Translations under genes and position numbers: made by a program
Shown: positions 34,294 through 38,088 of the stretch, one piece after another
Numbering within the stretch: position 1 is the stretch's first letter
Layout of the letters: every line of letters starts with the position of its first letter
Origin: a virus
Direction: 5' to 3' (one strand)
DNA: 64,000 nt
IMG/VR virus record: IMGVR_UViG_3300045988_179622
Notes under the pieces: model-generated
The model's input: the letters and a program-made list of their open reading frames with translations, nothing else
What the model was told of the DNA's origin: nothing
Databases searched by the model: none

Positions 34294-37200
34294 CTACATA
34301 CTCTTTCTATCTCTAATTTCGTCATTCTTAGCTTTATTGTATCTAGTTTCTCCTTTGACCCTTGTGTAAGACAAATAACCGTTCATTCTGTCAACTTTTG
34401 TTATATTCTCACTACCACATTCTGGACATTTATCCATATCTACCTGTTCATAGCCACAATCTTCACAGTAACTTAATGATAAGTTTACACCCTCATAAAA
34501 CCCTAGTTTCATAGCTCTTAACACTAAAGCTCTTACTGCATTTATGTTATAACCTAATGGGTATCTTACATACTGTATCTTTCCACCATTAAACATATCC
34601 CAAAATCTATATTCCTTATCCTGCTTTACAATTGGTGAAATATCTTCTGTTACATGACAATGGAAACTATTCGATACATATGTCCTGTCTGATACATTCT
34701 TGATAATTCCATATAAACTTCTGAACTGCTCTACCTGTGTTCCACAGTTATGTACTAAAATACCATTTGTTTCATCTCCAACAAAGAAATTATGGTTATC
34801 GGCTACCTCTATATCATAAACATCTCTATTGTCTACTTTCTCAATACTGATAATCTTTGTTGTTGTTTGTCTATATGATGTTCCATCTTCTGAGTCAATT
34901 ACCAATCTAGGTACTCTATTTCCTACCCTTAAATTTCTTGCTTCAACAAACTCCATCATCTGGTGTGCTTCTAAACCTCGTAATTCCATATACAACATAG
35001 CTATTTTATGCTTAGCTGTACACACTACCTCTGACCCATTTTCAAACTTTATCTTTAAGACCTCTGCATTAATTCCTGTCTTTTGCGAATTGAGTACCTC
35101 TTTATATTCAACCTTTGCTGTCCTTAAATTATAACTTCTTACTTTGTCTCCAACCTTTATATCTTTTAACTTGACACAACAACCTTTATCTGTATGTACT
35201 AAAGTCTCTCCATCTAAACATAATGTCTCTGCTGGTGTACCATATAAAGCATATAAAATGTTATCTTCCTCTTTAAACTTCTCTACTTTATCATTTATAT
35301 ATCTCATTACTTCCAATGCAAAAGCACCATCTTCTACTAAACTCTTTCCGTTGTATAATTCCTGTAATTCGTTTAGTGCTGTTACTCCATAACTCATTGT
35401 CATTGGTCTTAATAACGGTCTAATTGTGTCATTAGGCTTTAAGTGTCCTCCATATAAACCTCCCTCACAAAACATAACTGGATTAGTAGAGGCTTTCATT
35501 TCAGCCAAATATTCATATGTTCTCTTATGTAAATTTCGAATTAACTCTAAATAGTAATCCAATACCTCATAAAAATCTCTTGACTCCTGTCTTGACTTGG
35601 CTAAAATCATTGGTAAATGTAATGATACTACACCTAAATTACATCTTCCCTCAAATATTGGCTTGTCATCCTTATCTGCTGGGTGCATACCTCCTCGTTC
35701 ATACCAAGGAGATAAGAAAGCCCTACAGTTGTGACTATATATTCCACTAACCTCAAAATGTTCGCTGTCTGTCATAACATCATAACTATACATAGTTTTG
35801 TTTACTGGAATTACTTCTAAAACCTCTGCATTTGCATTGATATTTTTTTGCTGCTCTGAACAGTTTTCTTTGTAATGCTCACATTTCTTTTTGCATACGA
35901 TATATGAAAGTAATTCGCCAATAGCATAAAATTCCACTCTATATCTAATTGCATTAGGGTTCTTTTGGGTGTAATGATTATGGTAAATTTTCGCAGGGAT
36001 TCCTAATGCTTGTGCTAAAGCCATTTGTTGCAATGCTAATTCTTTGTTTGTTGAGCCAATTTGAACAACTGCTCTACCTTGAGAATTTTCATTAATATAT
36101 CCATCTGCATCAACCATTCCAGCCATAAAGGCAACTTTTGACTCATAATCCCACGAAAATACCTCGTTTGGTATATGTCTGTTTACTTTATTTATCCCAC
36201 CAAACTTTGTTGTGAAATAATTAATTGCAAATTGTAGGTTATTGTTATTAGTATTAGTATTAGTATTAGTATCTGTATCTGTATCTGCTATAGCACATAA
36301 ATCTTTATATTTACCTCTTTTACCTCGCTCTTGAATAACTGTCTTTGTATCCATCCCAAAGTATTTTAAAAATATTTCGTGAAATTTATGTTCAATCTCA
36401 TCTTCACCACTCATAGCAATAGAAGCAAAAATGTGACTATTCTGATAACACCCAGCACACAGCATAAACCCTAATAACCAAGCCTTATCTTTATTAAATG
36501 CAACTTTCTCCTCGCTGTACTGACTGGAATTAATTAATAATTTATCACCATTCTTCAAGTTTTCTGCCTTTATAATTCCTTTGTTAATAATTTCAAAGGG
36601 GTGGTCTGTTGTGCATAATAACCTTCTTCCGTTTGATAAATGAACATCAACAAAATTATTTGAAACATTCCTGACTATTCTTTTTGTATTCACAAATCCT
36701 TTTTCTGTATCGTAAATCTGTACATTCTGTAAATCCATATACAAATGTGGTTGTCCTTTAATCTGTACTTTTGGTTCAAATATATCTGACAGTCTATTCC
36801 ACATTCTTTGGAATGATTCAACAAATAAACTACCATTAAGTTTATATGTAATAACTTCATTTCCATCAACACATCCCATTGGGCTGACTACTCTTTTATA
36901 CTTCTTATACATAGACGGTACATAACCTTCTCCTGTTAAACTTAACCAATCTGGATACATTGTCCTAGCTGAACAAGCTATACCAGCGTTAAATACATCT
37001 CCATTAATGTACTCTGGACTGCCGTCTCCGTGTAAGTTCTCATCATATAAAAATACTAGCTTTGGGAATAATACTGGCTTCTTAAAGCCTTTCTTTCCTT
37101 GTCCCTCTCTATGCACATCTAACATTGTGATTGAAGCCATTTTTCCAAACTTGTCTGTTGCTAAACCAAAGGTAACTGTTACAAATGGATAATCTCCTCT

Positions 37201-38088
37201 CGATGAACCTACTGAATTTAACTTCATTTCAAGTCCTTGGAACCCTTGCTCAAAATCTCTCTTGACCTTCTCTGTAGCATATTTATCTGCTTTATCACTT
37301 AAATGGTTTGGAGATAAACTCTTAATAAACTCATCTGTTAAATTGAGATATTCTTTCCTATACTTTTCGTATGACTTCTCTGCATATGGAGCTAAAATCT
37401 TATCAATTTCAGGTACTGTAAATCCACCATATTGCTGACTTGCTGTATTTAATATCAAATCACCTAATACATCAAAGGCAACTGATAGTGTCTTTGGCTC
37501 GTTATACCAAAGATTTCCCATTTCAAAGCCACCCTTCATTACATTTCCTACATCTGCTAGACAACAATTAAATGTGTCTTTCCTTGCTCCCTTGTCGTGA
37601 ATGTAAATGTACCCGTCATTCATTGCTTGCTTCTCGTCTACTGTTAAAAAGAATTTCTTATATAACTCGGTGCTTAATGCGTTATAGATTAAACTCCTCT
37701 TTGTTGCTACTAATGCTGAGTCTGTATTCGCATTTCCCTTGTCCCCTAAATACATTATCTGCTGAGCATATAAATACACTTTATCTAACACATGAACAAA
37801 GTCTTTCTTATAATTTCTATATTCTTTATAACTCTTTGCAACCTTTGGGTGTAGCTCGTCTAATACTGTCTCTACTACATTGTGCATATCATAAACTTCT
37901 ATCTTTACTTCATCAGACTCATAAACTTCATTCTCCATTAAGAGTTCCCATACTGCTTTACATATCTCTGAATAGTCTGCTTCAGTAAGTTTTACCATCC
38001 CTCTATTTGCTGCTTTAGCTACTGCATTAATTATTTTCTGTTCGTTATAATCTTCTAGTGTTCCGTCTTTCTTTATTATCTTTACCAA
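34294..38088 (-). CDS. nrdD: anaerobic ribonucleoside-triphosphate reductase NrdD (class III) interrupted by two inteins
   Basis: N-terminal ATP-cone, C-terminal Zn ribbon CEDCG...CPECG and glycyl-radical motif RMNGYL. Two Hint domains with Cys...HN/C junctions. Confidence 0.85.
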   Translation of the reverse strand: MVKIIKKDGTLEDYNEQKIINAVAKAANRGMVKLTEADYSEICKAVWELLMENEVYESDEVKIEVYDMHNVVETVLDELHPKVAKSYKEYRNYKKDFVHVLDKVYLYAQQIMYLGDKGNANTDSALVATKRSLIYNALSTELYKKFFLTVDEKQAMNDGYIYIHDKGARKDTFNCCLADVGNVMKGGFEMGNLWYNEPKTLSVAFDVLGDLILNTASQQYGGFTVPEIDKILAPYAEKSYEKYRKEYLNLTDEFIKSLSPNHLSDKADKYATEKVKRDFEQGFQGLEMKLNSVGSSRGDYPFVTVTFGLATDKFGKMASITMLDVHREGQGKKGFKKPVLFPKLVFLYDENLHGDGSPEYINGDVFNAGIACSARTMYPDWLSLTGEGYVPSMYKKYKRVVSPMGCVDGNEVITYKLNGSLFVESFQRMWNRLSDIFEPKVQIKGQPHLYMDLQNVQIYDTEKGFVNTKRIVRNVSNNFVDVHLSNGRRLLCTTDHPFEIINKGIIKAENLKNGDKLLINSSQYSEEKVAFNKDKAWLLGFMLCAGCYQNSHIFASIAMSGEDEIEHKFHEIFLKYFGMDTKTVIQERGKRGKYKDLCAIADTDTDTNTNTNTNNNNLQFAINYFTTKFGGINKVNRHIPNEVFSWDYESKVAFMAGMVDADGYINENSQGRAVVQIGSTNKELALQQMALAQALGIPAKIYHNHYTQKNPNAIRYRVEFYAIGELLSYIVCKKKCEHYKENCSEQQKNINANAEVLEVIPVNKTMYSYDVMTDSEHFEVSGIYSHNCRAFLSPWYERGGMHPADKDDKPIFEGRCNLGVVSLHLPMILAKSRQESRDFYEVLDYYLELIRNLHKRTYEYLAEMKASTNPVMFCEGGLYGGHLKPNDTIRPLLRPMTMSYGVTALNELQELYNGKSLVEDGAFALEVMRYINDKVEKFKEEDNILYALYGTPAETLCLDGETLVHTDKGCCVKLKDIKVGDKVRSYNLRTAKVEYKEVLNSQKTGINAEVLKIKFENGSEVVCTAKHKIAMLYMELRGLEAHQMMEFVEARNLRVGNRVPRLVIDSEDGTSYRQTTTKIISIEKVDNRDVYDIEVADNHNFFVGDETNGILVHNCGTQVEQFRSLYGIIKNVSDRTYVSNSFHCHVTEDISPIVKQDKEYRFWDMFNGGKIQYVRYPLGYNINAVRALVLRAMKLGFYEGVNLSLSYCEDCGYEQVDMDKCPECGSENITKVDRMNGYLSYTRVKGETRYNKAKNDEIRDRKSM
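34747..35220 (-). mobile_element. intein 2 in nrdD (158-aa mini-intein)
   Basis: Starts CLDGETLV and ends VHN/C. No endonuclease domain. Confidence 0.7.
35728..36873 (-). mobile_element. intein 1 in nrdD (382 aa) with a LAGLIDADG homing endonuclease
   Basis: Starts CVDGNEV and ends SHN/C. LAGLIDADG-like blocks LLGFMLCAGCY and FMAGMVDADGYI. Confidence 0.75.

What the first reader, a model, noticed from the sequence alone, without database searches (positions are those of the whole stretch)
34294..38088. Class III ribonucleotide reductase NrdD split by two inteins, one carrying a LAGLIDADG homing endonuclease
The 1264-aa ORF has an ATP-cone, the NrdD core, a C-terminal Zn ribbon and the glycyl-radical RMNGYL motif. 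It holds two in-frame insertions bounded by Cys...HN/Cys. The first spans aa 406-787 (DNA 35728-36873) and has LAGLIDADG blocks LLGFMLCAGCY and MAGMVDADGYI. The second is a 158-aa mini-intein spanning aa 957-1114 (DNA 34747-35220). No separate NrdG activase gene was recognised in the window. The only radical-SAM protein looks RlmN-like. An (AGTATT)n/(ATCTGT)n microsatellite codes a TDTDTDTNTNTN tract inside intein 1.
Basis: partly seen in the sequence, partly recalled or inferred. Interest (0 to 1): 0.5.

Follow-up and report, generated by a model that had tools for sequence, protein, structure and literature searches.

The report
Phage NrdD gene carrying two inteins
A huge gut phage encodes its anaerobic ribonucleotide reductase as one 1264-residue precursor interrupted by two self-splicing protein introns (inteins) at active-site positions; this is a clean but ordinary example of a well-known kind of selfish element.

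Summary
The finding is confirmed. ORF 34294-38088 (-) encodes a class III ribonucleotide reductase (NrdD) with an ATP-cone, a Zn ribbon and a glycyl-radical motif. It carries two in-frame inteins at exactly the stated coordinates.

- **Excision restores NrdD.** Removing both inteins in silico gives a 724-aa protein. It matches the NrdD model end to end and aligns with T4 NrdD across both junctions without a gap.
- **Empty and filled alleles exist.** Public relatives have no intein, either one, or both, always with the same junctions.
- **Intein 1 site.** It sits immediately before the thiyl-radical cysteine. This site is already occupied by the Clostridium phage c-st intein, an Eggerthella phage intein and a Lactococcus phage 949 group I intron.
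- **Intein 2 site.** It sits two residues after the triphosphate-binding ATPAE loop.

I add three points:
- The LAGLIDADG endonuclease has lost the catalytic Asp of its first motif and holds a length-polymorphic microsatellite, so it is probably inactive.
- Intein 1 is closer to inteins of a distant phage lineage than its host gene is, which indicates past horizontal transfer.
- The source is a ~375-kb phage genome. The absence of nrdG from about 80 kb examined is therefore not informative.

Verdict: a new member of a known kind, of low to moderate interest.

The parts
34294..38088 (-). nrdD precursor ORF: 1264 aa, TTG start, stop included
   Evidence: The identical protein is called on public contigs.
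37804..38082 (-). ATP-cone (aa 3-95)
   Evidence: Pfam PF03477, E 5.7e-14.
36874..38088 (-). N-extein (aa 1-405). Contains the NxN flap GNANTDS (aa 118-124), YIHD (aa 162-165, within YIYIHD aa 160-165; aligns with the HxHD motif), NCC (aa 174-176; first Cys = T4 C79) and ends in SPMG.
   Evidence: Alignments to T4 and P. copri NrdD; coordinates.
35728..36873 (-). Intein 1: 382 aa, class 1 (Cys1 ... His-Asn / Cys+1) with a nested LAGLIDADG endonuclease domain. Its +1 Cys is the thiyl-radical cysteine (T4 C290, P. copri C416).
36445..36477 (-). LAGLIDADG motif 1 (block C), LLGFMLCAGCY. The catalytic acidic position is Ala545 (codon GCT, 36454-36456).
   Evidence: Asp in 77 and Glu in 1 of 87 aligned site-A inteins. 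Ala occurs only here and in the near-identical P0001.
36238..36287 (-). Hexanucleotide microsatellite inside the endonuclease domain, encoding DTDTDTNTNTNTNNNN. Its length is polymorphic.
   Evidence: TRF. The 98.8%-identical contig L002/P0001 has one AATACT unit fewer. P0002 has only ADDNNNM here.
36094..36126 (-). LAGLIDADG motif 2 (block E), MAGMVDADGYI, intact
35221..35727 (-). Middle extein (aa 788-956), from CRAFLS... to ...YGTPAETL
34747..35220 (-). Intein 2: 158-aa mini-intein (Cys1, TAKH block B, VHN / Cys+1) with no endonuclease. It is inserted two residues after the triphosphate-binding ATPAE loop.
   Evidence: Pfam Intein_splicing, PT-HINT and Hint; conservation; site mapping.
34294..34746 (-). 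C-extein (aa 1115-1264) plus the stop codon at 34294-34296. Contains the Cys4 Zn ribbon (34417-34467) and the glycyl-radical motif RMNGYL (34372-34389; Gly aligns with T4 G580).

Best explanation
The ORF is the catalytic subunit of a formate-type class III ribonucleotide reductase (NrdD, with ATP-cone) from a ~375-kb gut phage. It is translated as a 1264-aa precursor.

**Splicing (inferred from sequence).** Two class-1 inteins should excise themselves by the standard Cys1 / block-B Thr-His / His-Asn / Cys+1 mechanism. The three exteins are then joined into a 724-aa enzyme.

**Insertion sites (shown by alignment).**
- Intein 1 sits between Gly and the thiyl-radical Cys of the SPMG|CR finger loop, so the catalytic Cys doubles as the splicing nucleophile.
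- Intein 2 sits at the start of the helix that follows the triphosphate-binding ATPAE loop.
- Each intein interrupts an active-site element, so the precursor is presumably inactive until both have spliced out (inferred).

**Evolutionary state (inferred).**
- Both elements now look immobile. Intein 2 has no endonuclease.
- The intein 1 LAGLIDADG domain has lost one catalytic Asp (D to A) and has acquired an expanding microsatellite. This is the degeneration stage of the homing cycle.
- Intein 1 reached this lineage horizontally from, or shares a recent source with, the inteins of SPbeta/c-st-like phages.

**Activation (inferred).** Glycyl-radical formation must rely on an NrdG encoded elsewhere in the genome or supplied by the host.
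For: - **Domain architecture.** Pfam and NCBIfam hits are all above cutoff.
- **Spliced product.** It matches TIGR02487 in one stretch at 541.8 bits. It aligns colinearly with T4 NrdD at E 4e-73, with +1 Cys = C290, NCC = C79 and Gly = G580. It also aligns with P. copri NrdD, with +1 Cys = paper Cys416 and the ATPAE loop = residues 577-581.
- **All four allele states exist among relatives.** Of the 120 best hits, 73 have site A only, 33 site B only, 7 both, 6 have a further site (5 with site A, 1 with sites A and B) and 1 has none. Junctions are invariant.
- **Empty-site allele.** An intein-less phage allele (MT835545) breaks its tblastx match within 1-2 nt of both intein borders.
- **Splicing residues.** They are invariant across 87 site-A and 42 site-B inteins.
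- **Endonuclease decay.** The motif-1 acidic residue is Ala here against Asp/Glu in 78 of 87. Loss of the block C/E aspartates inactivated the PhoVMA endonuclease, and restoring them rescued cleavage (PMC8966425). The microsatellite differs by one unit between 98.8%-identical contigs.
- **Horizontal transfer.** Exteins are 84.6% identical to P0019 but 73.7% to P0002. Intein 1 is 41% identical to P0019's but 84.8% to P0002's (nt ~50% against ~82%).
- **Site-B relatives with an endonuclease.** Four site-B relatives are 302-320 aa; Pfam HNH domain PF13392 is recorded on three of those proteins.
- **Genome size.** The identical protein lies on a 374,984-bp contig.
Against: - Splicing, enzyme activity and endonuclease inactivity are all inferred from sequence. 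Nothing here was measured.
- A LAGLIDADG enzyme with one intact active site could still nick DNA, so 'immobile' is not proven.
- No NrdG was found in the window plus about 15 kb of flanks. A complete activation system is therefore not demonstrated for this genome.
- The ORF starts at TTG, with an AAGGA box 13 nt upstream, which is a rather long spacing.
Confidence: 0.88

Rival explanations
1. Intein 1 is still a mobile element. Its LAGLIDADG domain would remain an active homing endonuclease, or a nickase sufficient for homing, despite the Ala in motif 1.
For: - Motif 2 (MAGMVDADGYI) is perfect and the domain still scores above the Pfam cutoffs.
- The endonuclease domain remains 80-100% identical in amino acids to P0002's over most 30-residue windows, so decay is at most recent.
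- The discordant phylogeny shows this intein family has moved between lineages.
Against: - The catalytic acidic residue of block C is Ala, against Asp/Glu in 78 of 87 relatives.
- Loss of these aspartates abolished cleavage in PhoVMA (PMC8966425).
- A low-complexity tract of variable length has expanded between the two motifs.
- Other members of the family show stepwise decay down to 157-172-aa mini-inteins at the same site.
Confidence: 0.15
2. The gene is a decaying pseudogene or non-splicing fusion. One or both inserts no longer splice, the phage makes no functional NrdD, and it relies on host dNTP synthesis.
For: - No NrdG is nearby, unlike the P0002-type phages, where nrdG directly follows nrdD.
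- The Jug huge-phage study reports nrdD fragmented in 95 of 104 genomes (PMC12880540).
Against: - A 3.8-kb uninterrupted ORF in a 31% G+C genome is very unlikely without selection.
- Every splicing residue and every NrdD catalytic motif is intact.
- The only length change between strains is an in-frame hexanucleotide unit.
- The identical protein recurs in 26 index blocks of the contig collection (24 contigs read).
- Many phages carry nrdD without nrdG (PMC3653736).
Confidence: 0.05
3. The RlmN/Cfr-like radical-SAM protein (10388-11281) is the missing activase for this NrdD.
For: It is the only CxxxCxxC radical-SAM ORF in the window. It gives faint hits to glycyl-radical activase models: PFLA 27 bits and NrdG2 25.6 bits.
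Against: - Its best matches are RlmN/Cfr (107 and 82 bits) across nearly its whole length.
- The NrdG2 score is 25.6 against a cutoff of 131.
- tblastn and phmmer with ICP1 and L003 NrdG gave only E 0.2-0.3 to it; none of five NrdG queries reached E 1e-3.
- It lies 23 kb from nrdD.
Confidence: 0.03

Closest known systems
Clostridium phage c-st NrdD intein (CST076). I recall it as InBase entry 'CbP-C-St RNR'; PMC3653736 describes it as a putative intein in nrdD.
   Same: The intein is inserted immediately before the radical cysteine...ALASC|C...ITHN|CRL. The spliced protein aligns with T. maritima NrdD at C329-C330. It is also ~330 aa with an endonuclease-sized insert.
   Different: The host NrdD belongs to the distant Thermotoga-type subclass, with no BLASTP similarity to the window's exteins. 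The intein shares no detectable sequence similarity apart from the terminal HN/C. There is only one intein.
Eggerthella phage EL753P1 NrdD intein
   Same: It occupies the same site (YMG|C...NSHN|CRT) and has a LAGLIDADG-type architecture. It is the only real match to intein 1 among 50,697 deposited phage records (30.5% identity, E 3e-30).
   Different: It shares only ~30% identity, its motif 1 is also divergent (LIGVLVCDSSY), and there is no second intein.
Lactococcus phage 949 nrdD (group I intron plus intein)
   Same: A group I intron (Rfam RF00028, 41.6 bits, E 5e-9) splits the gene between GGT (Gly) and TGC (Cys) of PMG|CRS. That is the same inter-codon position as intein 1. It is an intron-intein coincidence at one homing hot spot.
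   Different: The element is an RNA intron, not an intein. The phage 949 intein lies at a different site, inside the glycyl-radical motif (RV|C...KN|CGYL). nrdG follows nrdD directly.
Metagenomic NrdD alleles P0002 (intein 1 only), P0090 (intein 2 only), and P0019, P0048 and P0069 (both)
   Same: They have the same two sites and the same junction residues. P0019 comes from a syntenic huge-phage contig (FtsH-like, PolA, HU, NrdD).
   Different: Most keep Asp in LAGLIDADG motif 1 and lack the microsatellite. P0002-type phages have nrdG immediately downstream.
VMA-type LAGLIDADG inteins (PI-SceI, TliVMA active; PhoVMA degenerate)
   Same: They show the same bipartite HINT plus nested LAGLIDADG architecture. 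PhoVMA is the precedent for an endonuclease inactivated by loss of the block C/E aspartates while splicing is retained (PMC8966425).
   Different: The host protein and insertion site differ, and there is no close sequence relationship.
Jug huge gut phages (360-402 kb, 27-30% G+C)
   Same: They share the genome size class, G+C content and gut origin, and nrdD is a hot spot for introns, endonucleases and Intein_splicing domains (PMC12880540).
   Different: Membership was not tested. In most Jug genomes nrdD is broken into separate ORFs, whereas here it is one ORF. NrdG is reported as a Jug core gene, but none was seen in the ~80 kb examined here.

Membership tests
Class III ribonucleotide reductase catalytic subunit NrdD (TIGR02487 / PF13597) | Full-length match to the family model above the curated cutoff | tested here: met
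   Spliced product: 541.8 bits (cutoff 326), aa 118-724 against model positions 2-581 of 581, in one stretch. Precursor: 495 bits in three stretches.
Class III ribonucleotide reductase catalytic subunit NrdD (TIGR02487 / PF13597) | C-terminal glycyl-radical motif, with the Gly aligned to T4 G580 / P. copri G711 | tested here: met
   The RMNGYL glycine aligns with residue 580 of 1h78 (the G580A mutant chain) and with P. copri chain G715, which is paper G711.
Class III ribonucleotide reductase catalytic subunit NrdD (TIGR02487 / PF13597) | Thiyl-radical Cys on the finger loop and a second active-site Cys on the first barrel strand | tested here: met
   After splicing, SPMG-C aligns with T4 C290 / P. 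copri C416, and NCC aligns with T4 C79 (PMC11226230).
Class III ribonucleotide reductase catalytic subunit NrdD (TIGR02487 / PF13597) | Cognate radical-SAM activase NrdG available | tested here: inconclusive
   None was found in the 64-kb window or in ~15 kb of flanks. The remaining ~295 kb of the 374,984-bp contig could not be read with these tools.
Class 1 intein (HINT domain) | N-terminal Cys/Ser, block-B TxxH, C-terminal His-Asn and a +1 Cys/Ser/Thr | tested here: met
   - Intein 1: C406, T-T-D-H at aa 493-496 (within LLCTTDHPF, aa 490-498), H786-N787, C788.
- Intein 2: C957, T-A-K-H at aa 1024-1027 (within VVCTAKHKI, aa 1021-1029), H1113-N1114, C1115.
- These residues are invariant in 87 and 42 aligned inteins respectively.
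Class 1 intein (HINT domain) | Profile match to intein/Hint models above cutoff | tested here: met
   PF14890 scores 42 bits (intein 1) and 53.5 bits (intein 2) against a cutoff of 35.8. PF07591 and PF01079 match intein 2. TIGR01445 and TIGR01443 also match.
Class 1 intein (HINT domain) | Precise excision restores the host protein, and empty-site alleles exist | tested here: met
   The intein-less P0118 and MT835545 match the predicted ligated junctions. All four occupancy states were seen.
Class 1 intein (HINT domain) | Protein splicing actually occurs | not testable with these tools
   This needs expression with SDS-PAGE or mass spectrometry.
LAGLIDADG homing endonuclease (double-motif, intein-nested) | Two LAGLIDADG helices (blocks C and E) and a profile match | tested here: met
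   PF14528 scores 49 bits (cutoff 22.5) and PF05204 scores 31 bits (cutoff 21.1). The motifs lie at aa 538-548 and 655-665.
LAGLIDADG homing endonuclease (double-motif, intein-nested) | A catalytic acidic residue at the end of each LAGLIDADG helix | tested here: not met
   Motif 1 has Ala545, whereas 78 of 87 relatives have Asp/Glu. Motif 2 keeps D-A-D-G. The domain therefore has the fold of the family but probably not its double-strand cleavage activity.

The most novel reading that the evidence does not exclude
The two Cys1/Cys+1 inteins might act as a post-translational switch rather than pure parasites. Both sit in the catalytic centre of an oxygen-sensitive enzyme, and intein 1 uses the radical cysteine itself as its nucleophile. 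Splicing could be blocked by oxidation of these thiols, so that active NrdD appears only in a reduced, anaerobic host cell. This would be conditional protein splicing of the kind I recall being proposed for other redox-sensitive intein hosts. Retention of both inteins across the sampled contigs of this phage lineage, with the endonuclease probably no longer functional, does not exclude this.
Probability: 0.07. Interest if true: 0.6.

Novelty: new member of a known kind. Interest (0 to 1): 0.25.

Why it matters
**Annotation.** A 1264-aa 'NrdD' in a huge gut phage is one functional gene, not a fusion or a pseudogene. Its mature product is 724 aa.

**Homing hot spots.** NrdD in this clade has at least three intein sites, each directly before a conserved cysteine. 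The radical-Cys site has been colonised independently by unrelated inteins and by a group I intron. Together with the extein/intein phylogenetic discordance, this gives a compact natural series of the homing cycle:
- active-looking endonuclease inteins;
- a point-inactivated endonuclease with microsatellite expansion, as seen in this window;
- mini-inteins.

None of this changes current understanding of inteins or RNRs.

Tried and rejected
- **Megablast of the gene against 50,697 phage records.** No match.
- **Search for nrdG.** I used a CxxxCxxC scan, and tblastn and phmmer with NrdG from ICP1, T4, phage 949, c-st and a P0002-type contig. I searched the window and every fetched locus, plus one 10-kb step beyond each window end. 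NrdG turned up only in the positive-control loci. I ran no further search on NrdG. The 'longest contig' column describes only the cluster representative, so it could not link a hit to this genome.
- **T4 nrdD intron at an intein site?** Rejected. It splits AYE|YEV near aa 190, which is elsewhere.
- **Intein 2 related to another NrdD intein in deposited phages?** Its best matches are Campylobacter phage class Ia NrdA inteins (47% over 90 aa), inserted right after the class I radical Cys (NLC|C...HN|CEI), and the phage 949 intein at the glycyl-radical site. Neither is at site B.
- **Co-conversion tract next to intein 1.** At most ~8 extein residues show raised identity to P0002. This is not convincing.
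- **Jug-phage membership.** No supplementary data are held for the paper.
- **Promoter and terminator scan around the gene.** Fewer promoter-like sites than in shuffles, and nothing informative.

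
Full report
**1. The observation**

The ORF listing gives one 1264-aa ORF at 34294..38088 on the minus strand. Pfam finds ATP-cone (aa 3-95), NRDD in three pieces, Intein_splicing/PT-HINT/Hint (aa 957-1114), LAGLIDADG_3 (aa 651-714) and Hom_end (aa 639-706), all above their gathering scores. NCBIfam gives TIGR02487 NrdD at 495 bits against a cutoff of 326.

- VVSPMG|CVDG...IYSHN|CRAFLS: aa 406-787, DNA 35728-36873.
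- TPAETL|CLDG...ILVHN|CGTQ: aa 957-1114, DNA 34747-35220.

The microsatellite is real: (TATTAG)4.5 and (GTATCT)3.2 on the + strand at 36246-36287. The peptide it encodes is DTDTDTNTNTNTNNNN, slightly different from the one quoted.

**2. Does excision restore NrdD?**

Removing both inserts gives a 724-aa protein.
- It matches TIGR02487 in a single stretch (aa 118-724 against model positions 2-581 of 581) at 541.8 bits.
- It aligns colinearly with T4 NrdD (1h78, E 4e-73) through both junctions.
- In that alignment the +1 Cys of intein 1 is T4 C290, the first Cys of NCC is C79, and the Gly of RMNGYL is residue 580.
- Against P. copri NrdD (8p23; chain numbering equals paper numbering plus 4), the same Cys is the 'radical initiator Cys416'.
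- The residues just before intein 2, (G)TPAE, align with P. copri ATPAE. [quoted passage not shown]

Intein 1 therefore splits the finger-loop tip. Intein 2 sits two residues into the helix after the phosphate loop.

**3. Comparative evidence**

A search of the 5.8-billion-protein collection returned thousands of relatives. I mapped large insertions in the best 120 against the spliced sequence:

| Occupancy | Proteins |
|---|---|
| Site A only | 73 |
| Site B only | 33 |
| Both | 7 |
| Site A plus a third site before NCC (+1 = T4 C79) | 5 |
| All three sites | 1 |
| None (P0118, 718 aa) | 1 |

- Junctions are uniform. All 86 site-A inserts read ..MG|C...SHN|CRAF, and all 41 site-B inserts read AE[NST]L|C...LVHN|CG[LTK]Q.
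- P0118 reads SPMGCRAFLSPWYE and YGTPAESLCG. The first is identical to the predicted ligation product and the second differs at one residue (window YGTPAETLCG).
- A deposited human-faecal phage contig (MT835545, 67% identical NrdD) is also intein-less. Its tblastx match to the window jumps from 36871 to 35727 and from 35218 to 34746, which is at both intein borders.
- The block-B Thr and His, the terminal His-Asn and the +1 Cys are invariant in 87 site-A and 42 site-B inteins.

**4. State of the endonuclease**

- In the 87-intein alignment, the acidic residue that ends LAGLIDADG motif 1 is Asp in 77 and Glu in 1. The window and its near-identical P0001 have Ala (codon GCT, 36454-36456). Motif 2 is intact.
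- Blocks C and E carry the catalytic aspartates. Their loss explains the inactive PhoVMA endonuclease, which was rescued by restoring them (PMC8966425).
- The microsatellite lies between the two motifs. P0002 has only ADDNNNM there. A 98.8%-identical contig (L002/P0001) has one hexanucleotide unit fewer.
- Other family members are more decayed, down to 157-172-aa mini-inteins at site A.
- Four site-B relatives are 302-320 aa. The HNH domain PF13392 is recorded on three of those proteins. The window's 158-aa intein 2 is the endonuclease-less form.

My reading is that both inteins are now immobile passengers kept only by the need to splice.

**5. History**

| Comparison with the window | P0019 (syntenic huge-phage contig) | P0002 |
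|---|---|---|
| Extein identity (aa) | 84.6% | 73.7% |
| Intein 1 identity (aa) | 41% | 84.8% |
| Intein 1 identity (nt) | ~50% | ~82% |

For comparison, nucleotide identity to P0002 in the exteins is ~70%. P0002 sits in SPbeta/c-st-like phage contigs with ligase, guanylate kinase, dUTPase and integrase genes, and nrdG lies right after nrdD. The intein and its host gene thus have different histories, which indicates past homing or replacement at an already occupied site.

A HMMER scan of 1.84 billion representatives finds 622 clusters (91 at E of 1e-30 or lower). 106 of the best 150 carry the ..N|CR.. C-terminal junction typical of NrdD site A, across several NrdD subtypes; several of the rest are short fragments.

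**6. Known counterparts**

- Inteins and introns in RNR genes are well documented. RNRdb had curated about 80 inteins and more than 100 group I introns by 2009 (PMC2795772).
- nrdD was the most frequently split RNR gene in phages (PMC3653736).
- Site A is the site of the Clostridium phage c-st intein: ASC|C...THN|CRL, where the spliced protein aligns with T. maritima NrdD C329-C330. That C330 is the radical Cys rests on my memory.
- Site A is also the site of the Eggerthella phage EL753P1 intein.
- In Lactococcus phage 949, a group I intron (RF00028, E 5e-9) lies between GGT (Gly) and TGC (Cys) of PMG|CRS. This is the same inter-codon position.
- The T4 nrdD intron is elsewhere.
- I found no site-B intein among deposited phage genomes, but site B is common in metagenomes.

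**7. Genome context and NrdG**

- The window has ~31% G+C, codes almost entirely on the minus strand, and carries four tRNAs.
- Its proteins match PHROGs and proteins of large and jumbo phages.
- The identical NrdD is on contigs of up to 374,984 bp.
- No NrdG was found in the window or in 10-kb steps beyond each end.
- Many phages carry nrdD alone (PMC3653736). In the similar-sized Jug gut phages, NrdG is a core gene located elsewhere in the genome (PMC12880540).
- The radical-SAM ORF 10388-11281 is RlmN/Cfr-like below cutoff and is not an NrdG.

The missing activase is unresolved and is not evidence of anything unusual.

**8. Verdict**

I add a probably dead endonuclease, horizontal origin of intein 1, functional mapping of both sites, and a huge-phage source. 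This is a new member of a known kind, of low to moderate interest.

The only non-excluded novel reading is redox-gated splicing of an oxygen-sensitive enzyme. It has no direct support here.

Noticed in passing
window 30450-31740: There are CRISPR-like mini-arrays. A 37-nt repeat (minus strand GGTTTAGAGGAATGTGGAATAACACAGGTGTAAACCT) occurs about 8-9 times at 64-68-nt spacing with unique 27-30-nt spacers. Repeats degenerate toward low coordinates. The arrays are interleaved with two 94%-identical tRNA-Gly(TCC) genes and a triplicated ~550-690-nt flank. No cas gene was recognised in the window.
   Followed up: partly
window 15965-17281 and 19993-20067: A TnpB-like ORF (OrfB_IS605 plus Cas12f1-like TNB domains; PHROG 'transposase') lies here, with a RAGATH-18 RNA match (51.3 bits, above gathering) about 2.7 kb upstream on the same strand.
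   Followed up: no
window 10388-11281: A 297-aa radical-SAM protein resembles RlmN/Cfr rRNA methyltransferases over nearly its full length but scores far below the equivalog cutoffs (107 against 290 bits). It may be a phage-encoded RNA-modifying enzyme.
   Followed up: partly
window 47645-49522: An FtsH-like AAA+ / peptidase M41 protein is encoded by the phage. It is conserved in the syntenic relatives L002 and L008.
   Followed up: no
window 39843-41027 (and 41113-43628): The DNA_pol_A domain lies on an ORF of only 394 aa, preceded by two ORFs with no family match. This may be a polymerase encoded in pieces, as reported for Jug phages.
   Followed up: no
relatives P0055, P0058, P0071, P0073, P0083 and P0061: A third NrdD intein site lies directly before the NCC cysteines (DTMN|CF...PTGN|CCL; +1 = T4 C79). 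These inteins end in Gly-Asn rather than His-Asn.
   Followed up: partly
L014 (Campylobacter phage vB_CjeM_WX1 nrdA): The closest deposited-phage relatives of intein 2 (47% identity over 90 aa) are decayed inteins in class Ia NrdA. They are inserted right after the class I radical cysteine (TNLC|CLAGDT...CVHN|CEIS) and are now broken up by extra ORFs.
   Followed up: partly
window 6109-7770, 20384-26695, 55355-57983: Other cargo includes a Band7/flotillin protein, at least four DNA methyltransferases, two weak HipA_C-like proteins, and a ParA-like plus T2SSE-type ATPase pair.
   Followed up: no
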